A stretch of DNA of 64,000 nt, taken from the NCBI GenBank assembly GCA_025829515.1, contig GCA_025829515.1_4865.1; one strand, 5' to 3'. Positions 13,135 to 61,987 of the stretch are shown here, one piece after another. The translations under genes and the position numbers were made by a program. Origin of the DNA: a phage. Below the pieces are notes generated by a model. The model searched no databases. It was not told the DNA's origin and saw only the letters and a program-made list of their open reading frames with translations. Positions within the stretch are counted from its first letter, which is position 1; each line of letters opens with the position of its first letter.

Positions 13135-14805
13135 ATGAGCATTACTGTTGAACAAATCAAAAACGTCATCGTTAAACATCTCGATCAGGACGCGGTACTG
13201 TCGCAGTTGAATAACGTGATGCGTAGTCGTAGCATTCCGCCAGATCAGGCGTTAAAGATTGCGACGTATGTTGCGGCATGGGCAGCATCCAAAGGGGGTA
13301 GTGAAGCACAGGTTATCGCATATGCAGTCGATGCGTATAAAGCAGCTGCCTATCAGCAAGTGCATAACGCAGGCGACGCGTATAACGACGATCGTCACAC
13401 CAAACTGGTTAATGCTTGGGAACAAGTCGGTAAGATTCTTGCCGAAATTCGTTCTCAGCAGTCCGGCGGTTTGGGTGGCAGTGGTGGTTTAGGTGGTGGT
13501 AGCAACGCAGGCGGGTTACTGGGCGGTAACAGTTCTGGCGGTGTGCGTGTTACTGACGGCTTGACTATGTCTTCTGCGCCATCCGGTGGTGTTAAGATTG
13601 GTAACACAGATGCGGCACTAACCGTGATTGCTGGCGGTGCAGGTCTTAACCTGGTCAGTGATCCTATTCTGAACCCACAGCCAGCGCAAGTAGCCCCAGC
13701 ACAACAGCCCCAGCCTGAACCAGCACCGGTGCCTGTACAACCAATGCCGGTGTCTAATGCTACAGTTAATAACCCAGTGCTTTCCCCACTCGGCGCAACA
13801 GAAGAAACCGAGAAGGACACTACCAATGGCCCAATTAACAACATTCTGCAGGAGATTGATTTGATGGAAGACTACGCACTTCACGAGCTGAAAACCCCCG
13901 AGCTTAAAATGTCGATTCCAGCGAAGGAAGCTAACAGTCGCATTAAGCAATCTGTTTACGCGGAAACGCGTGATTGGGCTACACCGTTGCAAGATATCTT
14001 TAACGGTAATGAAGAGGTTGTTTTCTACGACGGGGCTGACCTGATTGTGCGTGCACGGGATAGTTATCGCGCGTATCTGGTTGGTGTTAACACTGATATG
14101 TGCGAACGCATGAAGCAATTTGTTGCTAAGCACGACGCACTGAAATCCGATCTCGACAGCCTGGCGCTGGTAGAAGATGTTGAAACTATCATGGCTAAGG
14201 TGAAACGTACGATCGATGAGCTGCGTAAGAACACGAAAGAACTGCACGATTATGCGATTGCGAACAGCAGCGAAGCAGAAGTGGTTATCAGTGAGATTTC
14301 TCGCTTTGCTAACGCGTATCTGGCGAACATCACGTTCTTGGTACATAACGCGCTGTCGCTGGGCACTAAGCGTGGTAAAGATGTGCCGAAGTTCAAAGCC
14401 ATCGATTTCGAACGGAAAATCAGCGATATTGATTTCTTCGTAAAAGATCTGTTCACTGCAACCGCTGGCGACAATGGCGTAAGTGAATATGAAGATTGGT
14501 TCCGTGACCTGTTCCTGATGGTGGCGAACTCTCTGCGCAAACTGACTATCAAGCTGAGCGATTCTGGCAAGGTGGTTAATCTGATTCAGAGCCAGTTCAC
14601 CATCGTGATTCCAGGCATGTACCATTCTGTTGATAAACACGACGTAGTTACGGTAGCGTCTCTGGGCAATACCGCAGACCCGGTTGTGTCTATCTACGAA
14701 GCAGTACAGGAAAACGTGCCACATGCAATTGTATTGATGCAGCTGCCGCAGCACACTTACTTGCTTCTGAGCAATGGTGAGAAAACTGCACCAGTGTTGT
14801 ACTAA
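13135..14805 (+). CDS. hypothetical protein with Gly-rich and Pro/Gln-rich linkers (556 aa)
   Basis: AAGGAG upstream; low-complexity GGLGGSGGLGGG and PQPAQVAPAQQPQPEPAPVPV segments; terminator follows. Confidence 0.75.
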   Translation: MSITVEQIKNVIVKHLDQDAVLSQLNNVMRSRSIPPDQALKIATYVAAWAASKGGSEAQVIAYAVDAYKAAAYQQVHNAGDAYNDDRHTKLVNAWEQVGKILAEIRSQQSGGLGGSGGLGGGSNAGGLLGGNSSGGVRVTDGLTMSSAPSGGVKIGNTDAALTVIAGGAGLNLVSDPILNPQPAQVAPAQQPQPEPAPVPVQPMPVSNATVNNPVLSPLGATEETEKDTTNGPINNILQEIDLMEDYALHELKTPELKMSIPAKEANSRIKQSVYAETRDWATPLQDIFNGNEEVVFYDGADLIVRARDSYRAYLVGVNTDMCERMKQFVAKHDALKSDLDSLALVEDVETIMAKVKRTIDELRKNTKELHDYAIANSSEAEVVISEISRFANAYLANITFLVHNALSLGTKRGKDVPKFKAIDFERKISDIDFFVKDLFTATAGDNGVSEYEDWFRDLFLMVANSLRKLTIKLSDSGKVVNLIQSQFTIVIPGMYHSVDKHDVVTVASLGNTADPVVSIYEAVQENVPHAIVLMQLPQHTYLLLSNGEKTAPVLY

Positions 14806-15171: not shown

Positions 15172-15474
15172 ATGGTAAAGTTCATTGTTGTCAATATGGA
15201 TTTTGAGCGTAGTGTGCGTTTTCGCTTTGAGTTACCTGAAAACAAAGCGACTGAAGCTTTCTTAGCCGACTTCCACAAAGCCAAAACTGCGATCAGTCAT
15301 GGACGTCGCTGGCAAATCTTCTATAACGCCCGTAAAGGCCTCCTGAAGGCGTTAAAAGCAGCAAAGGATACAAAGGTATTGGAAAAGCTAGAACCTTTCC
15401 AGAACGACCCTCTGGCGATTGGTATCATGCTCGACGAATTGGTTAATAAACCTAAAGCTGCTACAGAAGATTAA
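15172..15474 (+). CDS. hypothetical protein (100 aa)
   Basis: ORF with GAGG upstream; ends at the bidirectional terminator. Confidence 0.65.
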   Translation: MVKFIVVNMDFERSVRFRFELPENKATEAFLADFHKAKTAISHGRRWQIFYNARKGLLKALKAAKDTKVLEKLEPFQNDPLAIGIMLDELVNKPKAATED

Positions 15475-15539
15475 AAAAAAAGAAAAGGTACCTCTCCCCG
15501 AAGGGAGAGGTAAACCTTATTTCTTTTTCTTTTTTTGTT
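15474..15539. terminator. bidirectional terminator between convergent genes
   Basis: Hairpin cctctccc-cgaa-gggagagg (15491-15510) flanked by an A-run upstream and a T-run downstream. Confidence 0.75.
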
Positions 15540-18283
15540 TAGAGGACGTTGTCTGGGTTGTCGTCGGTAGTTCCTTCACCGCCTTCTGTGCCTTCCGTTC
15601 CCTCGGTAGTTGTTTCCGTGGTTTCGGTCGACTCAGTAGTTTCCTCTGTACTATCGCCACCGGTGCCGTTATCCGTATCGAGATCGAGGTCTAAATCATC
15701 GTCACCCCCACCGCCGAGATCCCCATCATCACCACCAGTGTCACCGCCCGCATCAAAACCACCACCGAATCCGCCGGAAGCATCATTAGGATCAAGGTCG
15801 GCATTCTTCGCTAACGTTTCCAGTCGTCCGGTGAAACGTTTCGCCAATTGAATCAGCGTTTTCGAAGCAGCCATCGCTTCATCAGTCATCATGGTGATGT
15901 TGTCCTGACGAGAATCATCGTCGTAAACCAGATCGAAGAAGTCGGTTTCAATACCTTGTTTACGCAGCCAGTTGCGCGTATAGAAGGACTTGATCATCGT
16001 CTTCAGATCGTTCGGGTCCATCGAGATGCCTTCTTGCTGGAGTTGCGCAGCAATGTCATCCGTTACAACCAGATCAGCCAGCTTCTCAAAGAACTCCGTA
16101 CGTTTATCGAACAGCTCCATCTGCGAAGCTGCTGCCGATGTGTCGGGTGGTGGTAAGGTTACTTTCATACCGTTGATAAACGCAGCCAGATACTCAGAGA
16201 CCTTTTTCGTAATCTGGTCAGTAGTCATCCCATTGCCGTTAGCATTGATGTACTCTGCAATGATTTTAATCATCGCTGATTGCAACGACGGAGAGGCCAA
16301 CATCCCATTAACTACGTAACGTGTCAGTGGCTTAGAGAGAATCTCTTGCTTCTTAACAACCTGCTGGGTGACCAGTAACGATTTAGAGAAGATCTGTGAA
16401 GCAAACTCGATGTTCTCGGGGGTCATTACCAGGTCAGGGTCAACACCTGCGATGTGACAAGTGCGACGTAACAGACCTTCGTCGAAATCCTTATCCGGGT
16501 ATTTATAATCCGGCGTAGTGTCCGACACAGACACTTTGGTACTACCGTAGTAGTCGTTACCAATAACGTTAAACGCAATACCTGCGTTTGTCGTCATTGC
16601 CCAGGTGTCGTTCATGTCCCCCCACATCGGTTGACGACGGTTATAGGAGTTCATGATGTCTGTTTTCAGCTGGTCAATTGTTTTCTGACCGTTCATGTCG
16701 TCTGGTGCCAACTCAATGTCGTACTGCATGTGACGTGCAGAGTTCAGCACCGCAGAGTTCATGGTAGCGAACAACAGCGCCATACGGACAGTAGAGATAA
16801 CGAACGAGCGTTCGGTAATAGATACACCGATACCATCTTCATCAAAGTCCGTGGCAAAATAGCAAAGGTTTTCCGCAGGAATATAAATAACCTGCGTATG
16901 ACGTTTTGCCAGATGGCGCGCCAGCATGATACGGCTGAACGTTTCGGTTACTGTCATGCTAATCTCAGCACCACCCAACGCCTCACCCAACGCTTTTGTC
17001 AGCTGGTCTTCAGCAATCTCACCATAACGCGCTGTTAAGCGGTTAGCAATGTCTGGTGTGATTCGGGTTGTGTTGCCCATCCCCAGATTCGCGCGGTTGA
17101 TTGTCGAATCTACCATACCGTCGTTGTTCAGGTAGTTCATGAAGTTCGCATCCCCGTAAAGTGTGGAACGCGAGTTAATGAAGTTACCCATTTCGTCAAC
17201 GATGGCCAGATAACCTATGGGGTTACGAACATCGTCTCCGATAACGAGTGGGAGTGTGGACTCTGCTGGCAGTAATCGTTCCGTGTATTCGATTTTGTTG
17301 GCATCGGAGAAACTCATCTTCGGTACTTCGCCGTAAAGCTTTTGCTCAGGCGTTTTCTGGTACGCTTCGTTGAGGTCGCCGATGTTGATTAAACCGAGTT
17401 TTGCCTTCTCTTGTTCGCTGTCTGTGAACTGGTCAGCGTTATACTCTGACGCACCTGTCGGCGTAGAAGGTTGTTCATATGCGTACTGCTCTAACTGACC
17501 GAACAGGCCGGTGCGAGCATTCTCCTGTGCCACACGGCGATAAGCCTCTGGTAGCAGGGTAATACGCGGGTTGTCGGTGATAACGATATCCAGGGAAGCT
17601 AACATACCGTCTGCTTTAAACGGACTGTTAGGGGCTGCTGCAAAGTTAAGTTTAATGGTTTGTGGCTTGGTGGGCTTGTCAGCGCCACGTGCACGACCCA
17701 GAATACTTTCTACGCCAACCTTCGGTTTGTTTTCACCGCCAATCTTGCCCAGGATACCCAACTGACGTTCAAAGAAGTCAGATTGGCTACGGCGCAACGA
17801 TTCGGTTGCAACAGACGGCTTTAAGCCGAAGAGTTCATCGAATCCGGTATCTGAAATCAGCAACACCGGGCTCGCGCCTTTGGATTTCAGTGCATCGTAA
17901 ATCCACTGATACAGTTTGTTGGGTAACTGGCGCGTGTGGTCATGGAATTCACGCACAGGTTCCAATAACTGCTGACGCAGGTCGATCGGGATATCAGCCA
18001 CGTTGTCGTAAATCAGCGTGGTGTTAATCAAATCTTTTGTGGACAGGAGCGAGGAGGTCGCGATGGTAACAATGACCTCTAACTCAGGGAGCGCATCAAA
18101 GATACGTTCGGCATTTTTAACGGTGCGAATGCGGCTACTCGCAATGCCCGTGAGTTCTGTACGGGTTGGTGTAACGCCGCCATCTTCACGCTTACCGCGT
18201 TGCTGCTGAGCCGACGGGCTCGTGGACTTACGCAGTATGGCAGCTACCGCGGGGTCGCCCGTTAATTTACTAATATCTTCCAT
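15539..18283 (-). CDS. large virion-type protein with acidic disordered C-terminal tail, candidate portal (914 aa)
   Basis: Long - strand ORF; GGAGA 6 nt before ATG; C-terminal about 80 aa low-complexity acidic (DLDLDLD, TEETTESTETTETTTEGTEG). Portal assignment is inference from size and composition only. Confidence 0.3.
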   Translation of the reverse strand: MEDISKLTGDPAVAAILRKSTSPSAQQQRGKREDGGVTPTRTELTGIASSRIRTVKNAERIFDALPELEVIVTIATSSLLSTKDLINTTLIYDNVADIPIDLRQQLLEPVREFHDHTRQLPNKLYQWIYDALKSKGASPVLLISDTGFDELFGLKPSVATESLRRSQSDFFERQLGILGKIGGENKPKVGVESILGRARGADKPTKPQTIKLNFAAAPNSPFKADGMLASLDIVITDNPRITLLPEAYRRVAQENARTGLFGQLEQYAYEQPSTPTGASEYNADQFTDSEQEKAKLGLINIGDLNEAYQKTPEQKLYGEVPKMSFSDANKIEYTERLLPAESTLPLVIGDDVRNPIGYLAIVDEMGNFINSRSTLYGDANFMNYLNNDGMVDSTINRANLGMGNTTRITPDIANRLTARYGEIAEDQLTKALGEALGGAEISMTVTETFSRIMLARHLAKRHTQVIYIPAENLCYFATDFDEDGIGVSITERSFVISTVRMALLFATMNSAVLNSARHMQYDIELAPDDMNGQKTIDQLKTDIMNSYNRRQPMWGDMNDTWAMTTNAGIAFNVIGNDYYGSTKVSVSDTTPDYKYPDKDFDEGLLRRTCHIAGVDPDLVMTPENIEFASQIFSKSLLVTQQVVKKQEILSKPLTRYVVNGMLASPSLQSAMIKIIAEYINANGNGMTTDQITKKVSEYLAAFINGMKVTLPPPDTSAAASQMELFDKRTEFFEKLADLVVTDDIAAQLQQEGISMDPNDLKTMIKSFYTRNWLRKQGIETDFFDLVYDDDSRQDNITMMTDEAMAASKTLIQLAKRFTGRLETLAKNADLDPNDASGGFGGGFDAGGDTGGDDGDLGGGGDDDLDLDLDTDNGTGGDSTEETTESTETTETTTEGTEGTEGGEGTTDDNPDNVL

Positions 18284-18294
18284 TGGGGTCTCCG

Positions 18295-20478
18295 ATGCAG
18301 AGATTTAACATTTTTCGTGACCAGGCTATCCAGTTAGCGAAATCCCTGATTGTCAAATCAGAGAGCATCGCACAACAGATGAACCTGGCAATAACCAAAA
18401 ACGGCGGTTTCGTTTCCGAGAACCGTGAGACGTGGCGGTATTACCTACACTTAGCAGGTAAACGACATGCAATCGACAAGCCGATATACATTACGTCACT
18501 CGACACGCAAGAGCAGATAGAGTTAACGACGCAGAACCTCTCCCGTCATAAAAAGACCTCAAACGTATATCGTTCTAACCCGGAGTATATCGACGACTTA
18601 ATCGCCGAGTATCCGGACTACGCAGTATACATTCGCGGTACTTTCAATCCGATTGATATTGCATACGCGATACGTGTCGATGACTGCTCAATTTTGTATT
18701 ACGATCCTGCTTTAGTTGAACCGCAGGAGACGTCGTTAATTACACATATTGAGAACTTTATTCGTGCAGCACATGTGCGTTTCATGGCTGATGGCTGGAA
18801 AGTTCACAACGACTGTTTCGTACTGGCCTTTTACATGCAGCAGTACCCGGTGTGGCCGGGGCTTATCATGTACATCCGCAAACGGTTACAGTTTACGACC
18901 GAAACGCACTCCTACTACGTGACCGAGTTCTTGGCTTCGCACCAAGAACTGCACGAGTTCATGCCGTACCTGACCCTCAAGCAGAAATTCACACTGTATC
19001 GCAATATCCGTTACTGGGAACGTAACTCTGGTAAGGAAGAAATCTTTACCTGGATGATTGACACCCTGCTGACGGGTTGGGGTATGCCTGCTGTTGGATA
19101 TAAGGTCGCCCAGCAGATTCACGACCCGACGACGGGCAGTGACGATGACCTGACACCACTCCCGATCGGCTACCAGTCATCGCTTAACTATACTGAACGT
19201 GACTCGGGCCGTGACCTGGACATTGTTAGCACAACTGACATCATCCAGAAAGAAATCAATCTGGCGTACAATAACCCAGTGCACGAACCTGACTATCAGG
19301 AAGACCTCGATCGGCGTTTGAGCTTGACGCAGTATCCGAACCTGCCAACGAAGTTAGTTGAGGTAACGGCGATTGACCCAGAGGCCATCGAACGTTGGGA
19401 ATTTATGCATGGCTTGTTCAACGAGTGGATGCATATCGTGGCACGTGGACAGTACAACATTTACCACGAAATTCTTAACCCAACGAACGGGGATACGCTA
19501 AAGCTCACTTCAAAAGAGCTGCTGGCACTGTTCTTGTATGCGAGCTTCAAAGGTTATTCTGGCGTAGCACTGGATAAAATCCCGGTGTGGAATGTGTTTG
19601 GTGTGTTAATCAAACGCTGGGTTGGTTTTGATGAGATGGTGCAGCATCTGCCAAGCTCATGGCCCGGCCGTTTTAATGCGCTGATTAACTATTACACGGA
19701 CACGCATCATGAAGTTATCGGTAATTTGATGTCTGCAGATGAGTTGTACGATGAAATCAGCGAAATCATGGTGCAGAAGCGTCGTCGTTACCGTTACTCG
19801 TATAATCGACACAAGCTAGCCGACCGTGCTGCCGGCACAATGCTGTTTACCTACCATTACCGTGACTATAAGTGCGATCTTGACCTACCTTACCGCGATT
19901 ACGACGAGTTCTTCAAAACGTTTGGTTTTGATTACGAGTTAGTCTCCGCGGAAACCTGGCAGGACATCGCCACCGACGCTTTAAACGTGGCCACTAATCT
20001 GGAAACACGTGCGTCTGTCTCACAAGCTGAAATACAACGCGCGATGGTGCGGTTAATGACGAAACTCTCGTCGTATACTGTCCATTTTGCCGCACGTATG
20101 GGTTCTGACACCTACGATGTCACCGACCCAGTCATCCCGATTCTGGATGATATTCTCGCAGAGGCTGCCGATACAACAAATATCATTTACCCTCTGACAG
20201 ACGTGCAGCGCGTGAGCCGTAGTTCATTCATGACGACGGATAAACCCATCCCTGTCGCTCCCGTGATAAAGGAAATGGCAATCCCGCAACGTATTAAGTT
20301 GCGGATGAATGTCTACCCTGGTATCCGTGTGAAGGTCGAGCAGGATGTTGTGGTCGATACGGTACAACCGCCTATCGACGTTGTCCGTGTGCGGACGTCA
20401 TTTGAGGAGTGGACGCTTGCCGAGCGCGTGGCCGACCGTGACATGGATGGCTTCCGGCTAGACCAATTACCAAAGTGA
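18295..20478 (+). CDS. hypothetical protein (727 aa)
   Basis: ATG at 18295 (track start 18283 is TTG coinciding with the divergent gene start); no Walker A, so not a terminase large subunit. Confidence 0.7.
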   Translation: MQRFNIFRDQAIQLAKSLIVKSESIAQQMNLAITKNGGFVSENRETWRYYLHLAGKRHAIDKPIYITSLDTQEQIELTTQNLSRHKKTSNVYRSNPEYIDDLIAEYPDYAVYIRGTFNPIDIAYAIRVDDCSILYYDPALVEPQETSLITHIENFIRAAHVRFMADGWKVHNDCFVLAFYMQQYPVWPGLIMYIRKRLQFTTETHSYYVTEFLASHQELHEFMPYLTLKQKFTLYRNIRYWERNSGKEEIFTWMIDTLLTGWGMPAVGYKVAQQIHDPTTGSDDDLTPLPIGYQSSLNYTERDSGRDLDIVSTTDIIQKEINLAYNNPVHEPDYQEDLDRRLSLTQYPNLPTKLVEVTAIDPEAIERWEFMHGLFNEWMHIVARGQYNIYHEILNPTNGDTLKLTSKELLALFLYASFKGYSGVALDKIPVWNVFGVLIKRWVGFDEMVQHLPSSWPGRFNALINYYTDTHHEVIGNLMSADELYDEISEIMVQKRRRYRYSYNRHKLADRAAGTMLFTYHYRDYKCDLDLPYRDYDEFFKTFGFDYELVSAETWQDIATDALNVATNLETRASVSQAEIQRAMVRLMTKLSSYTVHFAARMGSDTYDVTDPVIPILDDILAEAADTTNIIYPLTDVQRVSRSSFMTTDKPIPVAPVIKEMAIPQRIKLRMNVYPGIRVKVEQDVVVDTVQPPIDVVRVRTSFEEWTLAERVADRDMDGFRLDQLPK

Positions 20479-51062: not shown

Positions 51063-51860
51063 ATGTCTTTTACTTCAAAACAGAATCTGCTAAAACTCAT
51101 CAACGAAGAGAATAAGATAAGCCCACCGCTTACCTTTGACGATGTTGATATCGGACTGCCGGAGGTTGTGTCAGTAGACGGTCGTGATTCGGAGGTAGTC
51201 CTTACCTCGAAGATGCGCGGTGATGAAGGTACGCAAGTGATTGTGGACTACCATCGTCGCCCATTAGAGGACTACCTTACAGGCGATGTTGCCTTTGGAG
51301 ACGAGGACGTGCAAACCACGCACGACTTACTCGCGGCGATTAACGAGCGTTTTAATCTGTCTATCTTACCTGAGGATATCGAAGATAACCCCATTGATGG
51401 ACAGACGCACACAGTCGTTGCTGTTGAAACTTCCCACGAGTGGCGAAGTCAAGCGGTCATCGAGCTGAAACCTGCTACACCTCTGGCAGAAGTAGTAACC
51501 AATACAGAGTTGAGCGGTCTTCTGTACCCGGATCACCAGGACATCCAGTTGGGTCAGGCGTATATCTATTCGCGTGACATCGATTGTAGCCACATCTCTC
51601 GTTTCCTGAGCCTCTTAGCGGTCGGTATCGAGGTAGATGACACGGCGTTGGCAATCGAACTCAACAAATGTGTTCCTGAGATTTGGGTAGCTGAAGATAC
51701 CCCATCCCCGTATAACCTGCGTGGTGCCACTGTCGTATTCGACGGCGTACCTGCAGACTTGCCGGGAGCAAATACGGCGTTCGCGAATGTCGTGTCAGTG
51801 CAACTGACCGATAAATGTACGAACTTCCAGGGCAGCCTCAACCTACACTTTAACAACTAG
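51063..51860 (+). CDS. paralog family 1 member 1, virion/fibre-like (265 aa)
   Basis: Shares an N-terminal domain of about 90 aa (LL..IN..N ... NT ... YDR ... L) and a C-terminal LH(F/Y)N motif with six downstream paralogs. Confidence 0.7.
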   Translation: MSFTSKQNLLKLINEENKISPPLTFDDVDIGLPEVVSVDGRDSEVVLTSKMRGDEGTQVIVDYHRRPLEDYLTGDVAFGDEDVQTTHDLLAAINERFNLSILPEDIEDNPIDGQTHTVVAVETSHEWRSQAVIELKPATPLAEVVTNTELSGLLYPDHQDIQLGQAYIYSRDIDCSHISRFLSLLAVGIEVDDTALAIELNKCVPEIWVAEDTPSPYNLRGATVVFDGVPADLPGANTAFANVVSVQLTDKCTNFQGSLNLHFNN

Positions 51861-51870
51861 GAGGGTATAG

Positions 51871-52713
51871 GTGTCTATTTACGATAAGCCCTCGAAAGAG
51901 ATGTTGTTAGATGCTATTAACCGACAGAACGGATTAACGGCCAATCCACTCACATGGGAGCAGGTTGCAACTGGCTTCCCTGAGTCTGTCCAAACGCCTG
52001 GCGCTGACCGGAATACGCGTGTGCTCTTATACGGGTTGAACGGCAAGGGCTACAAAGGCAACGTTACGCTCGAATACGACCGTATCGAAATGGAAATTCT
52101 GTTCAGGAACGTAATACCGGTAGTCGTTGCCGACCCGGTAAATAAACTCTCTGAGTTGTTGCCGTTTCTGAATGCGAAATACGGCTTGTCTTTAGTTGCC
52201 GATGATATCGTTGACCAGTCAGTAAAAGATTTGGGAGAAAGCTGGTTAATCGATGTGACTATTAAGCCCGGTTGCTTGGCCTGGCAAGGTGGTTTCCGTT
52301 TACGCTTTGCGAAGTTCTTCCCGAACTTGGCGGATGTGGTGACGGATGTTGACCTCAGCGCAATAATCGCACCGTTCGTGGTTGCTAGTAAACCACAGGC
52401 CGAGTATGTGGCGTATGGTTACGATTGGACTGAACTGCAAAAACAGTTCACCACCGATTGGGTTTACAACCGTGCAATCACTGCAGCGGATGTTGAGTTG
52501 TTGAATGAAGTGGTGCCATTAAAGTTTGCATATGTGACGGGGGCGAATGCGCAACCTGAACAAATTGCACTCCAAGGTGCACGATTTATGGGGATAACTT
52601 CAGTCACACCGAACGATAGTTACAACCCCGATTATCAGCGTGTGGCGATTATCAAGCTAGCTGCGGACAGCAACTACGCCGGTAATCTCATCCTTCATTA
52701 TCTCCCGATATAA
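51871..52713 (+). CDS. paralog family 1 member 2 (280 aa)
   Basis: GTG start with GAGGG 5 nt upstream; family N-terminal domain; ends LHYLPI. Confidence 0.7.
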   Translation: MSIYDKPSKEMLLDAINRQNGLTANPLTWEQVATGFPESVQTPGADRNTRVLLYGLNGKGYKGNVTLEYDRIEMEILFRNVIPVVVADPVNKLSELLPFLNAKYGLSLVADDIVDQSVKDLGESWLIDVTIKPGCLAWQGGFRLRFAKFFPNLADVVTDVDLSAIIAPFVVASKPQAEYVAYGYDWTELQKQFTTDWVYNRAITAADVELLNEVVPLKFAYVTGANAQPEQIALQGARFMGITSVTPNDSYNPDYQRVAIIKLAADSNYAGNLILHYLPI

Positions 52714-52723
52714 GGATTTTGAC

Positions 52724-53569
52724 ATGCCACTTTTAGCCACAGCTGAAAAGATTATTATCGCGGAAGTTAACGTCGAAAACAATCTCGATTTAAAAGTCGA
52801 GGATGTTGTTTTTGGTGTCCCTGCGATTCCAACGTCTGACGAAGACTTGGCAAAAGCTAACGGTCACAACGCGATGGTGCGCATTCAGGCATTGGCCACG
52901 GCTAATGCTATCGGTGCCACTACCGTGTATTACGATCGTGTTGACTTCGCAGACATGTTTACCGATCCGGACGGGATTCAACCTTTACGTGTTCCTGCGC
53001 GTCTCGATGCTGTTTACCAGATGCATGACGTGGTCGGGTTAATTAACCAGTATTACGGTCTCAGCCTTAAACCTGCAGATGTGGTGAATACCGAAATCGA
53101 CAGGAAGACATGGCGTGTGGATCTGGTTGCCACGCCCACTTCTTTAGGTTGGATAGGGCAACAACAGGTACAGCTGTTACCAGGCGATGCCTTGCTTCCT
53201 GCAAACTTCGAACCGTTAACAGTGACACCTTACGAGTACCCGTATTTCAACATCAAGGTCGGTCAAGGTGCAGTTTATTCGTATCCCTGGCGCTTTGATA
53301 ATTTCGCGGAGGAATTTCAACGACTAGGTGCTGCGATAACCACAGAACGTCTGGCACAGATTCTCAAAACGGTCACCGGGGATAACTGGACAACGTACCG
53401 TAACCCTATCGACTTTAACCTTCGTGAAGCCGTCGTCGTCTATAACGGGCGTAACAAAGCGGAATTACCAACCAACCCAGCAGTCGACAACGTGCTGATT
53501 GTGGAGCTGTCGTTGTACTGTCTGAATTTTGGCGGGCGTTTGTATTTGCATTACAACGACCCTGATTAA
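52724..53569 (+). CDS. paralog family 1 member 3 (281 aa)
   Basis: Family member by position and C-terminal LHYN motif. Confidence 0.65.
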   Translation: MPLLATAEKIIIAEVNVENNLDLKVEDVVFGVPAIPTSDEDLAKANGHNAMVRIQALATANAIGATTVYYDRVDFADMFTDPDGIQPLRVPARLDAVYQMHDVVGLINQYYGLSLKPADVVNTEIDRKTWRVDLVATPTSLGWIGQQQVQLLPGDALLPANFEPLTVTPYEYPYFNIKVGQGAVYSYPWRFDNFAEEFQRLGAAITTERLAQILKTVTGDNWTTYRNPIDFNLREAVVVYNGRNKAELPTNPAVDNVLIVELSLYCLNFGGRLYLHYNDPD

Positions 53570-53590
53570 TCCTGAGTAAAGGAAGTAAGA

Positions 53591-54502
53591 ATGAAACCTT
53601 TAAACAAAACGTCCGATCAGCTGGTTCTGGATTTTATTAATGAGAAAAACCCAGACGCAGAACTGGAACTTTCTAAAATAACGCTCGGCACACCGACCCC
53701 TATTGTCGATGAAGGTGCCGATCGCAATACCAGCATGACCCTGACTGCGAAAAAGAACTCCGGGTACATCGGTACTCAGGACGTGACTTATAATCGCCTG
53801 GAAGGCGGTGCGCTGTTCCGTAATGTAACCGCATACCTCGACGTTAAACTGCCGAAAACCACCACCGACCTGCTGACGACCCTGAACACCCAATACGGAT
53901 TGAAGCTGACCGAAGACGATATCGTTCCGGCGGCTATTCCGGAAAATACCAACCCGCCGCTGACTAACCCGAACGATCCGGACCCAGCACCGGTTGACCA
54001 TGTCATTACCTTCAAAGAAGACTGCTACGCTTATCTGGGCAGCATCCCGGTTAAAATCGGTGCTAAGCCTCAGGTTGGTGAACGTCTGAGTCTGGTGGTA
54101 ACACAAACCAAGCTCGACGGCCTGGTTTACCCAGATGGTCCAAGCGAAGCGAAGGGTCAGGGCTACATCTACTCTTACGGTGTAGACTGCACAGCAATCG
54201 CAGCATTCCTGAAAGTACAGACGAAAGGTGTTATCGCTGGCGACTCTGCATTCCCGGTTGAGCTGAATAAAGTTGTGCCGGAACTGTGGGTTGCATCTGA
54301 TGAGCCTGCGGATTATAACCTGAAAGGTGCTAACGTGTTGTACGTTGGTTCTACTACTGACGATGGCACTGCTTCAGGCGACGATCCTAAGAAACCGGTT
54401 GAAGGTGCAAACACTGCTTACAACCAGGTTCTGCTGCTGCAGCTGGATGACACTCTGTGCACCAACTTCCAGGGCGTCATGTACCTGCACTTTAATGCCT
54501 AA
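53591..54502 (+). CDS. paralog family 1 member 4, codon-optimised and probably the abundant member (303 aa)
   Basis: Family N-terminal domain; markedly stronger high-expression codon bias than its neighbours; the only member followed directly by a terminator. Confidence 0.7.
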   Translation: MKPLNKTSDQLVLDFINEKNPDAELELSKITLGTPTPIVDEGADRNTSMTLTAKKNSGYIGTQDVTYNRLEGGALFRNVTAYLDVKLPKTTTDLLTTLNTQYGLKLTEDDIVPAAIPENTNPPLTNPNDPDPAPVDHVITFKEDCYAYLGSIPVKIGAKPQVGERLSLVVTQTKLDGLVYPDGPSEAKGQGYIYSYGVDCTAIAAFLKVQTKGVIAGDSAFPVELNKVVPELWVASDEPADYNLKGANVLYVGSTTDDGTASGDDPKKPVEGANTAYNQVLLLQLDDTLCTNFQGVMYLHFNA

Positions 54503-54514
54503 TTAGGCCTCGCT

Positions 54515-54556
54515 GGGAGGAGGAAATCCTCCTCCTGGCTACTCCTTTCTTTTTTG
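54515..54556 (+). terminator. rho-independent terminator inside the paralog array
   Basis: ggaggagg-aaat-cctcctcc plus T-rich run. Confidence 0.75.
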
Positions 54557-54571
54557 GCCGAGGAGGCTATT

Positions 54572-55411
54572 ATGGCTTTATATAGTCTGTCTCAGCGACA
54601 ATATCTGTACGATGCGATTAATGCCGAAAACCCGGATGCTGTTCTACCGATGGGTTTAGACAATGCTATCATCGGTACGCCGAAAGCAATCACACCGACA
54701 GCAAGCGGTGCCAATACTGAGATTATCATTCGTGGTCGTCAAGGTCGTGGCTATATCGGTCCTCAGACGTTCCGTTATAAGCGCTTGTCGCTGAACGACT
54801 TATTTAAGAACATGACACCTCAGGTAACTGCACCGAATGCCTACGGTTGGTTGAACGTGGAGTCGAAACGTACTGCGTTTGCGCAGAACCTGAACGGTCG
54901 TTATGGATTAAACCTGGTTGCAGACGATATCCCAGAACAATACGTTTATCTGAACGTAAACAACACGATGCGCATTAACGCTAGCTGTATCCAATACACT
55001 GGCAGCATCACCTTTATGTCTATCCGGGGTAAGAATAGTCTCGAAGACCTCGTGGTAAACGACATCTTGTTGGCTTTGAACCACCCTGCAGCAGCAAGCA
55101 CTGGTAAGAAATACATGGGCTTCTTGACGTACGGGGAAGACTTTACCGATGAAGTGCAGGTTATGGCCTCGTTTAAGAACGGGCGAATGGATGTAGGAAG
55201 TAACTTTGATTTGGGTTACACGTCCAATCTGATGGCCACATTGGTCGCACGTGGGGTACCGTCGTTTGATCCGACGAACTGCACAATTACCCGCTACAAA
55301 ACGAGTGAGTTGGCGACCGCCAATAAAGCGTACGATAACGTATTGCTGATTACCGGCATTCAGAACGACCCGAAAGTAATCGGCGAGTGTATGTTGCACT
55401 ACAACAACTAG
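54572..55411 (+). CDS. paralog family 1 member 5 (279 aa)
   Basis: ATG at 54572 with GAGGAGG upstream (track start 54554 is TTG inside the terminator tail). Confidence 0.7.
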   Translation: MALYSLSQRQYLYDAINAENPDAVLPMGLDNAIIGTPKAITPTASGANTEIIIRGRQGRGYIGPQTFRYKRLSLNDLFKNMTPQVTAPNAYGWLNVESKRTAFAQNLNGRYGLNLVADDIPEQYVYLNVNNTMRINASCIQYTGSITFMSIRGKNSLEDLVVNDILLALNHPAAASTGKKYMGFLTYGEDFTDEVQVMASFKNGRMDVGSNFDLGYTSNLMATLVARGVPSFDPTNCTITRYKTSELATANKAYDNVLLITGIQNDPKVIGECMLHYNN

Positions 55412-55421
55412 GAATTAGCGA

Positions 55422-56309
55422 ATGGCTATTTATCAACCTTCTAAAGACGTCCTGTTGGCAGCAGTGAACGCACAGAACTCGCTTGCTGTTAAGATGACTG
55501 ACATCATCTGGTCCTCGCCAAAGGACATCCGTGGTACGGAGAAGGAAACGCTGACTAACCGTAACACGCAAATTAAAATTACGGCAGATGGGGTAACGGG
55601 CTCTACCTGGTCGGGTAAGAAAAATGTCTTCTACAACCGCATGAAAGTCGAAGACTTGTTAGTGCTGATTGGTGACACGTTGGCGATCGGCCCATCCAAC
55701 GAAACCTTGTATGCGGCCATTCCTGGACTGAACCAACGTTACGGTTTTGTTCTGGAAGAAGCTGACCTGCAGGACGCAGATATCGAATGGAACGGTGATA
55801 AGACCGAAGGTACTGTGCGCGTTGTTGCACATCCGGAGTCTATCGGCTGGGTTGGACAGGCGACATTTAAAGTCGTGAAAGGCGATGAGTCGTTAGTCTC
55901 TGCGGTCACTACTAACGTCCTGACCGGTCTGAAATACCCGAACGGTCAGATGGGTTCCGAAACCGTTACTGCGGTCATTGCAGAGGTTTATTCCTACCCG
56001 TACAACTTCACCAAATACCGTGATGAGTTGCTGGCATACGTGCCGGGTATTCTGTCCGGGCAGCCGTTAACGGATATGGTTAACCTGCTGAAAGATATCA
56101 CGGGTACTGCATGGGTAGCGACCACCTCCGCTTCCTACGGTTTGGCGGGCGCGGAGGTTATCAGCGTTGGTCTGAATGACCCTGTTGCAATGCCGACAAA
56201 CGCGAAGTACAAGTATGCGCTGGTGTTGAAACTGCCTGTTACCTGTACCACCATCGTCGGAACGTTGTATCTCCAGTTCAACGATCTGGACGATCCAAGC
56301 GAGGTATAA
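55422..56309 (+). CDS. paralog family 1 member 6 (295 aa)
   Basis: Family N-terminal domain; ends LYLQFNDLDDPSEV. Confidence 0.7.
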   Translation: MAIYQPSKDVLLAAVNAQNSLAVKMTDIIWSSPKDIRGTEKETLTNRNTQIKITADGVTGSTWSGKKNVFYNRMKVEDLLVLIGDTLAIGPSNETLYAAIPGLNQRYGFVLEEADLQDADIEWNGDKTEGTVRVVAHPESIGWVGQATFKVVKGDESLVSAVTTNVLTGLKYPNGQMGSETVTAVIAEVYSYPYNFTKYRDELLAYVPGILSGQPLTDMVNLLKDITGTAWVATTSASYGLAGAEVISVGLNDPVAMPTNAKYKYALVLKLPVTCTTIVGTLYLQFNDLDDPSEV

Positions 56310-56312
56310 TTG

Positions 56313-57140
56313 ATGATCAACTATGCTAAGCCGTCAAACGAGTTGGTCTTTGACCTCATTAACCGGGATAACCCAAACCTACCTATTAAAGCGTCGCCGG
56401 CAAACTGCTACGTGGAGAAAGTGACACAGGTTCCCGTTAATGCAGCTTCCAACAACCGCAATACGTCGGCACGCTTGCGCGGTATTCAGGGTTCTGGATT
56501 TCGAGACGCAATCACCGTTTACTACGACCGTGTGAACTTAGCGCGGTTATTGCCGTGGGGGCCTTCCGTCCAGGCGCAGTTCGTCACGTTTGACGCACCC
56601 AACCTCCACTCAGCCTTTTCGGTGCTCTTGGATACCTACGGAGTAAACTTCTCCGCAATCGATATCCAAAACTACTCACTGTTTGGTGCCAATACCCCAA
56701 ATTACACCAATACACAGACCATTGCAGCGCTATCGACATCTCCGGCTTATATCGGTTCTGCGACGTTGCGTTATAACCGTGGTTTACCGGTACTAGACAC
56801 TTCGGTGAAATCGGATGTCTTGAATGCGATTCAAGAGCCTATTTCACCGTCTCTCGGTAAGAAGTGTATTGATTTGTTGACGTACGGTATTGACTTTACC
56901 GCGTATAAAAACCTACTGACAGTAGATGCTTCTGGCCTACCGCAGTGGGCTGGTTTGCGTAAGGTGTTGGATGACCTGGGTATTCCGAACTACGCGGGGC
57001 CACTGAACAGCAACACCGTTCAGGATGTGCCGACTTCCACCGCTCAGTTCGCTAACAAATCGTACGACCGCGTGGTTATCCAAACGGGTATCGATGAGGA
57101 AGGCGTGAAAGGCGTGGCGTACTACCACTATAACAGCTAA
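56313..57140 (+). CDS. paralog family 1 member 7 (275 aa)
   Basis: ATG at 56313 (track start 56310 is TTG); family N-terminal domain; ends YYHYNS; terminator follows. Confidence 0.7.
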   Translation: MINYAKPSNELVFDLINRDNPNLPIKASPANCYVEKVTQVPVNAASNNRNTSARLRGIQGSGFRDAITVYYDRVNLARLLPWGPSVQAQFVTFDAPNLHSAFSVLLDTYGVNFSAIDIQNYSLFGANTPNYTNTQTIAALSTSPAYIGSATLRYNRGLPVLDTSVKSDVLNAIQEPISPSLGKKCIDLLTYGIDFTAYKNLLTVDASGLPQWAGLRKVLDDLGIPNYAGPLNSNTVQDVPTSTAQFANKSYDRVVIQTGIDEEGVKGVAYYHYNS

Positions 57141-57145
57141 GTGTA

Positions 57146-57170
57146 GGGGCTCTTCGGAGCCCCATCTTTT
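57146..57170 (+). terminator. terminator hairpin (UUCG tetraloop)
   Basis: ggggctc-ttcg-gagcccc followed by atctttt. Confidence 0.7.
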
Positions 57171-57187
57171 GGCGATGCGGAGTCCCT

Positions 57188-58600
57188 ATGCTATTTTACT
57201 CGAAGGAGTCGGCACTGCTTGTATACGACCAAGTCAATCGGGATAACCCTGATTTAGTTATTAAGCTGACGCCGGCTATCGCTGCTTTAACCAGTGGCCC
57301 AACCTCAGTTACGTTAAACCAACGTAACACCAAAGCTGTTTTCACCGGGTATCCAGGGACAGGTGTACAAGGTAATGTTACCGTGTACTACGACCGGATT
57401 AACCTGGCCACCTTATTTAATTTTGTGCCGACTGTGGCTATCAAAGACACAGTCTTAACGGTACGAGACGCGTTACCTGCAATAAACGACGCATTAGGAC
57501 TTACATTAGTTGCTTCTGATTTGCAGTCACCTGACGCAAGTTTACCTAAACCGAGCGTTTCGCCGCAGACGTTGAAATTAAATATCTCAGGCAATTGCCC
57601 TGCGTTTACAGGCAGCTTAACGATACGTTATACCGTCCCGAGTGGTGCAATTTACCCCGATTCTGGACCTGGCCCTAAAACGTTGCTGCAAGGTAACACT
57701 ATCGCGGGTTATTTCGGAACAACCAGAACTGCAGAGTTGTTTACACACTCTCAACTTCTTAATGCCACTATATCGGCCGGTGCGTTACCACCGGTACATT
57801 CTGGTGCCGAAGGTTGGTACAAGTTCTTTTACCAGGGTAGGGTTATTTACCTCCCGATCAGTCCTGTCGCTGGCTCCATCTCCTGGAATACGTTATATAC
57901 AAACGGACTCGTTTACGGAACAGACGATAACGGTAAATACCCTGCAGCGACGCCCGTTAACCAGGGACGCATCATTAGCTTTACAGGCGCAGACAACAAA
58001 AGGTTTTACTTCCGTGTTCGTCTACCTAGTGCCGGGAAAGACCCATACGTCAGCGGCACCCCAACTGCCGCTGAGTTAGCAGGTAGTGAGTTTGAGATGT
58101 TCAACTTTCTGTATAATGGAACGTGGGACAAACCGATTAACAGTTACTGGACGCTGTTCTGTTTATTGAAAGATACACTGAAGACCAACGTCGCCCATCA
58201 TCGCATGGCGACGTTGTCTGGAGCAAGTTGGACAAACTTAGAAAAATCATCGAGTGCGGGCAACTACTACTGGTTCCCGGTGCTGGAGTTGGTGGATAAG
58301 TCCACAGTTACCTTGGGTTTAGAAGATATCCACGGTACGGCAGATTACAGTCTCCAACCGTGCAGCGTGTCCGCAGAAAACACATTTAGTCTCAAGCCGT
58401 TAGTGCTCGGTAATCCGGATACTACCGATTTCGAACCGGTAGTTGTTACTTCAGAAAACAGTTTCGCACTGCATCCGCCTGCTTTAATGCTGCCGAAGAC
58501 AGTCGACTTCCAACCTATTGCGGCTACCGCTGAAATGTATACGCCCCCTGACAAGACAACGTTAACGTCTCTTAACGGTGAACTGGACGGCTTTAAGTAG
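57188..58600 (+). CDS. cassette gene A1: family 1 N-terminal domain plus GPGP module, fibre/receptor-binding candidate (470 aa)
   Basis: N-terminus homologous to family 1; central GPGP...GYFG...ELF...YGTDD...RLP module; C-terminal NGELDGFK shared with A2. Confidence 0.7.
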   Translation: MLFYSKESALLVYDQVNRDNPDLVIKLTPAIAALTSGPTSVTLNQRNTKAVFTGYPGTGVQGNVTVYYDRINLATLFNFVPTVAIKDTVLTVRDALPAINDALGLTLVASDLQSPDASLPKPSVSPQTLKLNISGNCPAFTGSLTIRYTVPSGAIYPDSGPGPKTLLQGNTIAGYFGTTRTAELFTHSQLLNATISAGALPPVHSGAEGWYKFFYQGRVIYLPISPVAGSISWNTLYTNGLVYGTDDNGKYPAATPVNQGRIISFTGADNKRFYFRVRLPSAGKDPYVSGTPTAAELAGSEFEMFNFLYNGTWDKPINSYWTLFCLLKDTLKTNVAHHRMATLSGASWTNLEKSSSAGNYYWFPVLELVDKSTVTLGLEDIHGTADYSLQPCSVSAENTFSLKPLVLGNPDTTDFEPVVVTSENSFALHPPALMLPKTVDFQPIAATAEMYTPPDKTTLTSLNGELDGFK

Positions 58601-58611
58601 AGGTATCATCT

Positions 58612-59610: not shown

Positions 59611-59619
59611 GGGGCAGTC

Positions 59620-60543: not shown

Positions 60544-60556
60544 TGGAGTAAATACC

Positions 60557-61975: not shown

Positions 61976-61987
61976 GAGGTAACGACA

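What the first reader, a model, noticed from the sequence alone, without database searches (positions are those of the whole stretch)
15539..15800. Acidic, low-complexity disordered C-terminal tail on the 914 aa - strand protein
The last about 80 residues are almost entirely D, E, G and T (DLDLDLD, TEETTESTETTETTTEGTEG), a polyanionic tail that could mimic nucleic acid or mediate packaging interactions. If the protein is the portal, the tail would face the capsid interior.
Basis: partly seen in the sequence, partly recalled or inferred. Interest (0 to 1): 0.35.

Follow-up and report, generated by a model that had tools for sequence, protein, structure and literature searches.

The report
Acidic disordered tail of jumbo-phage portal
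The 914-residue protein is the already known portal (DNA gateway) of an SPN3US-like giant Salmonella phage, and its floppy, strongly negative 88-residue end is real, shared by the whole portal family and points into the capsid, but nobody has yet shown what it does.

Summary
Observation confirmed. The minus-strand ORF 15539-18283 ends in 88 residues (827-914; nt 15542-15805) with no K/R, net charge -28 and 75% D/E/G/T. This is the most acidic stretch among 13,268 windows from the window's 72 ORFs.

The protein is the orthologue of Salmonella phage SPN3US gp81 (body 99.5% identical). Published proteomics identify gp81 as the virion portal, cut at AQE-254. It matches solved dodecameric portals: phiKZ gp129 (E 6e-48) and Goslar gp36.

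The tail starts where the last predicted crown helix ends, is predicted disordered (pLDDT ~26), and corresponds to residues beyond Goslar's described crown domain.

New here:
- 131 of 136 non-redundant homologues (found without using the tail) have an acidic tail; mean net charge -24 over the last 80 residues.
- The tail evolves 10-20 times faster than the body (dN/dS ~0.2 vs ~0.015) while keeping its charge.
- It carries a D-hydrophobic-x-hydrophobic-D motif and a hydrophobic last residue, both above expectation.

It is not a geometric DNA mimic. Most likely it is an electrostatic brush and tether at the channel mouth, excluding DNA and/or holding basic internal head proteins. The mechanism is inferred. 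Known protein; undescribed, moderately interesting feature.

The parts
15539..18283 (-). Portal protein gene (914 aa plus stop), orthologue of SPN3US gp81
   Evidence: ORF. PHROG 3004, E=0. 96-99% DNA identity to SPN3US-like phages, two of which annotate it as 'portal protein'. PDB sequence hits: phiKZ gp129 portal 6e-48 and Goslar gp36 portal 3.5e-26. Foldseek top hits are all portals.
17522..18283 (-). N-terminal propeptide, residues 1-254, ending in the prohead-protease site A-Q-E254 (nt 17522-17530)
   Evidence: The AYRRVAQE|NARTG site is present. E254 is invariant and A252 is at least 90% conserved in 33 homologues. Cleavage at AQE-254 was shown for SPN3US gp81 by mass spectrometry (PMC5694885, PMC10052503).
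15806..17521 (-). Mature folded portal body, residues 255-826 (wing, stem, clip, crown)
   Evidence: Aligned with phiKZ gp129 residues 270-873. AF2 model with Foldseek match to 9xpe_M at 6.8e-24. dN/dS 0.007-0.035.
15803..15910 (-). Last predicted crown helix, residues 792-827 (conserved LIQLAKRxxGKxETxAK), from which the tail emerges
   Evidence: AF2 secondary structure H792-827. Conserved in alignment A1.
15542..15805 (-). The finding: disordered polyanionic C-terminal tail, residues 827-914, net charge -28, no K/R
   Evidence: Family-wide conservation of composition.
15704..15778 (-). Gly-rich hinge of the tail, residues 836-860 (SGGFGGGFDAGGDTGGDDGDLGGGG)
   Evidence: Sequence. A G-rich proximal segment with an F/L residue recurs in homologues.
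15677..15703 (-). Acidic-hydrophobic motif DDDLDLDLD, residues 861-869
   Evidence: Invariant among five Seoulvirus genomes although the tail is otherwise variable. The alignment column block 'DDLxLD / DDFxxD' is kept down to about 45% identity. The [DE]-hydrophobic-x-hydrophobic-[DE] motif is found 49 times in 140 non-redundant tails, against 25.1 +/- 4.9 in shuffles; none of 500 shuffles reached it.
15572..15676 (-). Variable Thr/Glu/Gly/Asp-rich distal segment, residues 870-904
   Evidence: Sequence. Most substitutions between close relatives fall here and in the hinge, with charge-compensating D/G swaps.
15542..15571 (-). C-terminal end TTDDNPDNVL, residues 905-914, with hydrophobic last residues
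   Evidence: Nearly invariant in five Seoulvirus genomes. The last residue is hydrophobic in 59 of 140 non-redundant homologues, against 14% expected (binomial p 4e-16). Pro is at position -3 in 26%.
15489..15512 (.). 10-bp GC-rich hairpin with T-runs on both strands, 27 nt downstream of the portal stop, between convergent genes: candidate bidirectional terminator
   Evidence: Consensus scan. A pattern match only.

Best explanation
SHOWN OR STRONGLY SUPPORTED. The protein is the portal of an SPN3US-like (Seoulvirus) giant Salmonella phage. Its last 88 residues are an intrinsically disordered polyanionic extension that leaves the final helix of the crown domain. Twelve copies (about 1,056 residues, about -336 charges) therefore project from the top of the portal ring into the capsid interior, around the mouth of the DNA channel. 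The tail has no A-x-E protease site, and the published gel mass of the mature SPN3US portal fits a protein that keeps it. Across the whole phiKZ/SPN3US portal family selection maintains length (about 80-110 residues), negative charge and lack of K/R. Most of the sequence is not maintained. The exceptions are an acidic-hydrophobic motif (DDDLDLDLD here) and a hydrophobic C-terminal end.

INFERRED MECHANISM. The twelve tails form an electrostatic and entropic brush-and-tether at the channel mouth.
(i) As a polyanion the brush excludes packaged DNA from the crown and the channel entrance. This extends the negatively charged upper surface already noted for other portals.
(ii) Through charge, the embedded hydrophobic motif and the terminal anchor, it holds basic segments of internal head or ejection proteins next to the channel. 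Candidates are the basic stretches of about +12 per 40 residues that begin 18 residues after the maturation cut in the two most abundant SPN3US internal proteins, gp53 and gp54. Holding would occur during prohead assembly and in the virion, so that these proteins are placed to leave first.

Role (ii) parallels the part-disordered C-terminal barrel of the P22 portal, which offers binding sites for ejection proteins.
For: Identity:
- 96-99% DNA identity to SPN3US-like phages. Gene order and numbering place it as gp81.
- SPN3US gp81 is the virion portal, processed at AQE-254 (PMC5694885 and PMC10052503).
- Sequence hits to the solved dodecameric portals 9xpe (phiKZ gp129, 6e-48) and 11ed (Goslar gp36). 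Foldseek hits are all portals.

Position and disorder:
- AF2 puts the last helix at 792-827, followed by coil with pLDDT ~26.
- The Goslar crown domain is described as residues 778-923 of 969, at the top of the portal. Its last ~46 residues, acidic in the alignment, lie beyond that domain description.
- Only 633 of 896 phiKZ gp129 residues are modelled.

Retention:
- A-x-E sites occur only at residues 159, 252, 268 and 278.
- The mature mass is 72.5 kDa with the tail and 63.9 kDa without it. SPN3US gp81 runs in gel slice 7 with 70-76 kDa proteins, while a 61 kDa protein runs in slice 6.

Selection:
- A search with the body alone found 1,122 homologues. Of 136 non-redundant full-length ones, 131 have net charge <= -10 in the last 80 residues (mean -24, against -2.4 per 80 in the body). 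All 60 closer homologues score -24 to -47 over the last 90.
- dN/dS is 0.14-0.33 in the tail and 0.007-0.035 in the body, with net charge held at -27/-28.
- Motif and terminal hydrophobic enrichment.

Partner candidates: gp53 and gp54 have acidic propeptides (-15, -26) followed by basic stretches of +12 and +11.

[quoted passage not shown] The disordered part of the P22 barrel binds ejection proteins near the crown (PMC4992974).
Against: - No experiment or structure shows the tail contacting anything. No tail peptide could be found in the proteomics text held here, and none is expected: the last tryptic peptide is 88 residues, 8.6 kDa.
- Gel-mass evidence for retention is weak, because acidic proteins run anomalously.
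- The tail's 336 charges are negligible next to about 480,000 DNA phosphates, so any DNA-exclusion effect is strictly local.
- gp53 and gp54 are candidates chosen only by charge.
- Motif and terminal-residue enrichments were tested against shuffles and a binomial expectation, not with a phylogenetic correction.
- P22 and T7 carry ejection or core proteins, yet their portals lack an acidic tail. An acidic tail is therefore not a general requirement for organising such proteins.
Confidence: 0.45

Rival explanations
1. Pure DNA-repellent brush or headful sensor. The tails only provide negative charge. They keep DNA off the crown and channel mouth and transmit the electrostatic pressure of the filling capsid to the crown, so the portal switches from packaging to neck attachment. 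No specific protein partner is involved.
For: Charge, K/R exclusion and length are conserved, while most positions are free to vary. The tail lies in the capsid interior. T4 work attributes portal switching to packed DNA pushing on the wing and crown (PMC12929629), and attributes negative upper portal surfaces to DNA avoidance (PMC4493910).
Against: It does not explain the over-represented acidic-hydrophobic motif, the hydrophobic C-terminal residue, or the invariance of exactly these blocks among close relatives.
Confidence: 0.25
2. Assembly-only hub. In the prohead the tails recruit scaffold or core components (for example the scaffold candidate gp22, the protease gp245, or precursors of ejection proteins) to nucleate the internal core on the portal. 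They have no role after maturation.
For: Portals nucleate proheads in T4 and P22 (established knowledge). The SLiM-like features of the tail. The SPN3US authors propose an anchoring role for the portal's N-terminal propeptide, so anchoring functions are expected on this portal.
Against: There is no evidence for any partner. The tail lacks a protease site and appears to be kept in the virion. An assembly-only element would more typically be removed, as the propeptides are.
Confidence: 0.15
3. Nucleic-acid mimic or plug. The tails occupy the portal channel or terminase-binding surfaces in place of DNA, gating the channel before packaging or after ejection.
For: The contour length of about 317 A would let a tail reach through the channel. 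Acidic tails that compete with DNA for basic surfaces are known from HMGB1 and, from memory, from T7 gp2.5.
Against: The tail is disordered and has about one charge per 11 A, against one per 1.7 A for dsDNA. It therefore lacks the defining geometry of DNA mimics. The portal channel surface is itself described as predominantly negative in T4 and other portals, which would repel the tail.
Confidence: 0.07
4. Functionless low-complexity drift. The tail is an expansion tolerated because the C-terminus points into free space.
For: It diverges fast and has many indels. Tail length ranges from about 40 to more than 400 residues in the family.
Against: It is present in 131 of 136 non-redundant homologues with mutual identity below 50%. 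dN/dS is about 0.2, clearly below 1. K/R are strictly depleted, net charge is held constant by compensating substitutions, and there is no DNA tandem repeat.
Confidence: 0.06

Closest known systems
Salmonella phage SPN3US gp81 (portal protein; Seoulvirus)
   Same: It is the same gene. The body is 99.5% identical, the tail 85% identical with net charge -27, the genomic position is the same, and the AQE-254 maturation site is the same. gp81 is documented in virions as the portal.
   Different: Thirteen substitutions and a one-residue indel in the tail. The SPN3US papers read here discuss the N-terminal propeptide; none of the gp81 or portal passages retrieved from them mentions the C-terminal tail.
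phiKZ gp129 and Goslar gp36 portals (solved: PDB 9xpe, 11ed)
   Same: Homologous across the mature body (E 6e-48 and 3.5e-26). Both also end in G/D/E/T-rich acidic tails that align loosely with this one. Both are dodecamers at the unique vertex, with the crown on top.
   Different: Only about 24% identical. The portal passages retrieved from the two structure papers do not mention the tail. Goslar's crown description stops at residue 923 of 969, and 633 of 896 phiKZ residues are modelled.
T4 gp20 portal crown C-terminus
   Same: T4 gp20 is described in the papers as structurally similar to the phiKZ and Goslar portals. Its last 40 residues have net charge -11 and it ends in a hydrophobic residue (...QEQEDF). 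Negative upper surfaces are proposed to avoid DNA binding.
   Different: T4's acidic end is mostly ordered crown helix, with only 8 disordered residues. Here 88 residues are disordered, Gly/Thr-rich and carry -28.
P22 gp1 portal barrel
   Same: A C-terminal extension beyond the crown into the capsid interior. It is partly disordered in the virion, and the disordered part binds ejection proteins positioned to exit through the channel (PMC4992974).
   Different: The P22 extension is an alpha-helical coiled-coil barrel with no net acidity (net -2 over the last 80 residues). Here there is no predicted helix, and the extension is an extreme polyanion.
Acidic disordered C-terminal tails that compete with nucleic acid for basic surfaces (HMGB1 tail; T7 gp2.5 and gp4 tails ending in Phe, the latter from memory)
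   Same: A disordered run of D/E at the C-terminus, with a hydrophobic terminal residue in the T7 cases. It acts as a polyanion that binds basic patches (for HMGB1).
   Different: Those tails are 20-30 residues long on soluble DNA-binding proteins. Here the tail sits on a structural ring protein, is 88 residues long, occurs in twelve copies and is confined inside a capsid. No binding has been shown.

Membership tests
phiKZ/SPN3US-type phage portal protein (PHROG 3004) | Significant sequence homology to portals whose structure is solved | tested here: met
   phmmer against PDB: 9xpe_M PHIKZ129 6e-48; 11ed_J 'Portal Protein gp36' 3.5e-26; 36za_o8 5e-20 with 12 chains. PHROG 3004 E=0.
phiKZ/SPN3US-type phage portal protein (PHROG 3004) | Portal fold (wing, stem, clip, crown) | tested here: met
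   The AF2 model (mean pLDDT 62.7) matches the phiKZ portal at 6.8e-24. The next 50 hits are all phage or archaeal-virus portals, but with weak E-values.
phiKZ/SPN3US-type phage portal protein (PHROG 3004) | Present in virions at low copy number (12) as a dodecamer at one vertex | not testable with these tools
   Literature for the orthologue: SPN3US gp81 was detected in virions with 27 unique peptides and 47% coverage. Dodecamers are solved for phiKZ and Goslar.
phiKZ/SPN3US-type phage portal protein (PHROG 3004) | N-terminal propeptide removed at an A-x-E site by the prohead protease | tested here: met
   The motif AQE252-254 is present and conserved (E254 invariant). Cleavage itself is known only from SPN3US mass spectrometry.
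DNA-mimic proteins (Ocr/ArdA type) | Folded scaffold presenting carboxylates with the spacing and geometry of the DNA backbone | tested here: not met
   Predicted coil with pLDDT ~26. On the disordered side of the charge-hydropathy plot, with one charge per ~11 A against 1.7 A for DNA.
Acidic C-terminal tail with hydrophobic terminal anchor (T7 gp2.5/gp4-like module) | Disordered D/E-rich C-terminus ending in a hydrophobic residue | tested here: met
   The tail ends ...DNVL. The last residue is hydrophobic in 42% of 140 non-redundant homologues, against 14% expected.
Acidic C-terminal tail with hydrophobic terminal anchor (T7 gp2.5/gp4-like module) | Binds a basic patch on a partner or competes with DNA | not testable with these tools
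   Only candidate partners were identified by charge: the basic stretches of gp53 and gp54.
P22-type portal barrel | C-terminal extension beyond the crown forming an alpha-helical coiled-coil tube | tested here: not met
   No helix is predicted after residue 827. The tail is 25% Gly.
Simple tandem-repeat (slippage) low-complexity region | Head-to-tail DNA repeats | tested here: not met
   TRF at minimum score 30 finds no array inside 15542-15805.

The most novel reading that the evidence does not exclude
The disordered polyanionic tail would be the jumbo-phage counterpart of the P22 portal barrel: a conserved electrostatic tether. Through its D-hydrophobic-x-hydrophobic-D motif and hydrophobic end, it would hold the basic segments of the ejection and inner-body proteins at the channel mouth. 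This would dictate where the internal protein mass nucleates during prohead assembly, and would ensure that proteins leave before or with the DNA at infection.
Probability: 0.3. Interest if true: 0.6.

Novelty: new variant of a known kind. Interest (0 to 1): 0.35.

Why it matters
The gene itself is known, so it adds nothing. The tail is different. It is a feature of essentially every phiKZ/SPN3US-type portal, more than 1,000 homologues, yet cryo-EM cannot see it and trypsin-based proteomics cannot detect it. I found no discussion of it in the papers read or in the keyword searches.

Two things remain unresolved for giant phages. One is how the tens of megadaltons of internal and ejected proteins are organised relative to the portal. 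The other is why the 'inner body' is not seen in recent asymmetric maps. A portal-anchored polyanionic tether with a small conserved motif offers a concrete handle that can be tested genetically: tail deletion, charge neutralisation or motif mutation in SPN3US, which already has an amber-mutant system. If the tail proves to be only a DNA-repellent brush, it is a modest elaboration of a known principle.

Tried and rejected
- Pfam gave no hit for the portal, so identification rests on PHROGs, PDB sequences and fold search.
- I searched the text-held supplements of two SPN3US proteomics papers for tail peptides and found none. This says little, because the tail gives an 8.6-kDa tryptic peptide and a 46-residue chymotryptic peptide.
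- No supplement is held for the phiKZ atlas paper, so the modelled residue range of gp129 could not be read.
- The phiKZ TnSeq paper says only that gp129 is essential and gives nothing on the tail. The Avs5 paper tested the portal as an activator with a modest effect, which is not relevant to the tail.
- I looked for extra domains after the acidic region in unusually long family members, hoping they would reveal what is being tethered. Eight of nine simply have longer acidic tails. Only P0103 has about 95 further residues, and these have no Pfam hit. My impression that it resembled a ParB-like segment was not confirmed and is dropped.
- The portal's own N-terminal propeptide is not basic (about +2 over 254 residues). 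Intramolecular masking of the tail is therefore unlikely.
- Rejected: tandem-repeat slippage; C-terminal removal by the prohead protease, since the tail has no A-x-E site; structural DNA mimicry.
- A literature search combining 'portal protein' with acidic-tail terms listed no portal paper among the top 15 of 278 hits.
Full report
OBSERVATION. The minus-strand ORF 15539..18283 encodes 914 residues. After the last basic residue (K826) come 88 residues, 827-914 (nt 15542-15805). They contain 22 Gly, 19 Asp, 16 Thr, 9 Glu and no Lys or Arg. Net charge is -28, and D/E/G/T make up 75% against 28% in the rest of the protein. As a null I took 72 non-overlapping ORFs of the window and all 13,268 of their 88-residue windows. 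Mean net charge is -1.9 (sd 4.6). The portal tail is the minimum, and the next most acidic gene reaches only -17. The stretch lies on the disordered side of the charge-hydropathy boundary. AlphaFold2, run with a 33-sequence alignment, gives coil with pLDDT 24-30 from residue 828 to the end, directly after a long helix at 792-827. Tandem Repeats Finder sees no DNA repeat in the tail.

WHAT THE PROTEIN IS. The region is 96-99% identical in DNA to SPN3US-like giant Salmonella phages (Seoulvirus); two records annotate the gene as portal protein. In SPN3US it is ACQ60_gp185, which is gp81 in the original numbering: the two numbering schemes sum to 266 for both the major capsid protein and the portal. 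Published mass spectrometry identifies SPN3US gp81 as the portal. It was detected in virions with 27 unique peptides and 47% coverage. It is matured by the prohead protease gp245, which removes a 254-residue N-terminal propeptide at AQE-254 (PMC5694885, PMC10052503). The same AYRRVAQE|NARTG site is present here, and E254 is invariant in 33 homologues.

Pfam has no model for the protein, but PHROG 3004 matches end to end. A sequence search of the PDB finds three solved portals: phiKZ gp129 (9xpe, E 6e-48), Goslar 'Portal Protein gp36' (11ed, 3.5e-26) and a third 12-chain entry. The AF2 model matches the phiKZ portal at 6.8e-24, and every other listed Foldseek hit is a viral portal.

WHERE THE TAIL SITS. 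[quoted passage not shown] Its last ~46 residues, which are acidic in the alignment, lie beyond that domain description. For phiKZ gp129, 633 of 896 residues are in the model; which ones are missing could not be read with these tools. In the window protein the tail begins exactly where the last predicted crown helix ends. Twelve tails therefore emerge around the inner mouth of the DNA channel. That amounts to about 1,056 residues and about -336 charges, and each tail has a contour length of about 317 A.

IS THE TAIL KEPT IN THE VIRION? The SPN3US protease cuts after A-x-E. Such sites occur only at residues 159, 252, 268 and 278, and none is in the tail. The mature chain is 72.5 kDa with the tail and 63.9 kDa without it. 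SPN3US gp81 peaks in gel slice 7 together with 70.4 and 75.7 kDa proteins, whereas a 61 kDa protein runs in slice 6. This favours retention, but weakly, because acidic proteins migrate anomalously. Direct peptide evidence is not expected: the last tryptic peptide is the whole tail (8.6 kDa), and the distal half forms a 46-residue chymotryptic peptide. None was found in the supplements held as text.

CONSERVATION. All 60 full-length homologues from the word-indexed search (42-99% identity) have net charge -24 to -47 in their last 90 residues, although the tails cannot be aligned residue by residue. To avoid circularity I searched 1.84 billion cluster representatives with residues 1-826 only. 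This gave 1,122 hits at E<=0.001. Of the 136 full-length proteins among the top 150, which are from clusters at 50% identity, 131 have net charge <= -10 in the last 80 residues. The mean is -24, against -2.4 per 80 residues in their bodies. In 123 of them the most acidic 60-residue window lies at the C-terminal end. Typical tail length is 80-108 residues; a few members have 260-430 acidic residues.

Among five Seoulvirus genomes the body is 99.3-99.8% identical in protein, while the tail is 85-92% identical. Nei-Gojobori dN/dS is 0.007-0.035 in the body and 0.14-0.33 in the tail for nine of ten pairs. The tail is thus 10-20 times less constrained but still under purifying selection. Net charge stays at -27/-28 through compensating D/G swaps.

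NOT PURELY COMPOSITIONAL. Within the variable tail, two blocks are invariant or nearly so in the five close genomes: DLGGGGDDDLDLDLDTD and EGTTDDN(P/S)DNVL. In 140 non-redundant homologues the pattern [DE]-hydrophobic-x-hydrophobic-[DE] occurs 49 times, against 25.1 +/- 4.9 in composition-preserving shuffles; the maximum over 500 shuffles was 39. The last residue is hydrophobic in 42%, against 14% expected (binomial p 4e-16), and Pro is frequent at position -3. These tests are not phylogenetically corrected. The resulting anatomy is:
- a conserved last helix;
- a Gly-rich hinge;
- an acidic-hydrophobic motif;
- a variable Thr/Glu/Asp/Gly stretch;
- a short end with hydrophobic residues.

COMPARISON WITH OTHER PORTALS. 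T4 gp20 is described in the phiKZ and Goslar papers as structurally similar to their portals. It has a short acidic end, net -11 over 40 residues, ending ...QEQEDF. That end is mostly ordered crown helix, with only eight disordered residues (PMC4493910). The P22, T7 and lambda portals have no acidic tail. [quoted passage not shown] In P22 the C-terminal barrel is partly disordered in the virion, and the disordered part offers binding sites for ejection proteins clustered just inside the crown (PMC4992974).

MECHANISM. What is shown is the identity, position, disorder, charge, conservation and selection regime of the tail. What follows is inference. A structural DNA mimic is unlikely, because the tail is disordered and carries about one charge per 11 A against one per 1.7 A for dsDNA. 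Drift is unlikely, given the conservation and dN/dS. I favour a brush-and-tether model. The twelve polyanionic chains exclude DNA locally from the crown and channel mouth, which extends the known negative-surface principle. They also bind basic segments of internal head proteins through charge, the embedded motif and the terminal anchor.

Candidate partners exist. The two most abundant SPN3US internal (ejection) proteins, gp53 and gp54, have strongly acidic propeptides (net -15 and -26). Eighteen residues after the maturation cut each has a basic stretch of +12 or +11 per 40 residues. The other head proteins checked are neutral or acidic overall: paralog family B in the window, and gp45-gp52. 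This model fits two facts. This portal family belongs to phages that pack tens of megadaltons of internal protein. The inner body has not been resolved relative to the portal in recent maps. The rivals (pure brush or headful sensor, assembly-only hub, channel plug, drift) are listed with their evidence. Brush and tether are not mutually exclusive, and my confidence in the combined mechanism is about 0.45. Identity and topology I hold at above 0.9.

NOVELTY AND VERDICT. The gene is already known. The tail is visible in every deposited sequence, but I found no discussion of it in the SPN3US, phiKZ or Goslar papers read, nor in a keyword search. Its family-wide conservation, selection pattern and embedded motifs are new observations of modest weight. 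It is a new variant (a long disordered polyanion) of a known theme (negatively charged portal crowns, and C-terminal portal extensions that organise the capsid interior). Interest is 0.35: a specialist would not be very surprised, but the feature gives a simple genetic handle on how giant phages organise and eject their internal proteins.

Noticed in passing
Public records LR5359xx (Salmonella phages SPFM1, 6, 7, 8, 9, 12, 20); protein P0062: These records match the portal gene only as about 40 pieces of about 60 nt. The annotated 822-aa 'protein' of SPFM20 is the portal cut into 20-residue blocks in exactly reversed order. This indicates that the 60-nt sequence lines were deposited in reversed order: a database artefact, not biology.
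   Followed up: partly
window 15489-15512: A 10-bp GC-rich hairpin with T-runs on both strands lies between the convergent gp80 orthologue (ends at 15474) and the portal gene (stop at 15539). It is a candidate bidirectional terminator, found by consensus scan only.
   Followed up: no
window 18283-18295: The portal is one of only three minus-strand genes among 72 ORFs in the window. Its ATG lies 11 nt from (SPN3US annotation), or overlaps (longest-ORF rule), the start of the divergent gp82 orthologue. Both promoters must therefore lie inside the neighbour's coding sequence.
   Followed up: no
window 15549-15851 (+): A 100-aa Ser/Pro/Val-rich ORF lies antisense to the tail. It is the mirror image of the tail's low-complexity codons and almost certainly not a gene.
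   Followed up: no
L009 23607-24884 and 24962-26221 (SPN3US gp53, gp54; outside the window): Both abundant internal head proteins have strongly acidic propeptides (net -15 and -26). Eighteen residues after the maturation cut each has a basic stretch of +12 or +11 per 40 residues, both ending in GKQKK. This suggests that the propeptide masks a basic, possibly DNA-binding, segment until maturation.
   Followed up: partly
proteins P0103, P0187, P0198 (distant family members): P0103 carries about 95 non-acidic residues after its acidic stretch, with no Pfam hit. P0187 and P0198 have acidic tails of about 260 and 430 residues.
   Followed up: partly
window 13135-14805 (+): The 556-aa gp78 orthologue (PHROG 8185, unknown function) has a Gly/Ser-rich and then Pro/Gln-rich low-complexity middle, at about residues 100-230.
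   Followed up: no
window 51063-62974 (+): An array of about 12 consecutive ORFs of 265-472 aa appears, from its position, to correspond to SPN3US head-protein paralog family B (gp138-152). All are neutral or acidic overall.
   Followed up: no
window 1-64000: The whole 64-kb window contains no tRNA gene and no Rfam family above gathering threshold.
   Followed up: yes
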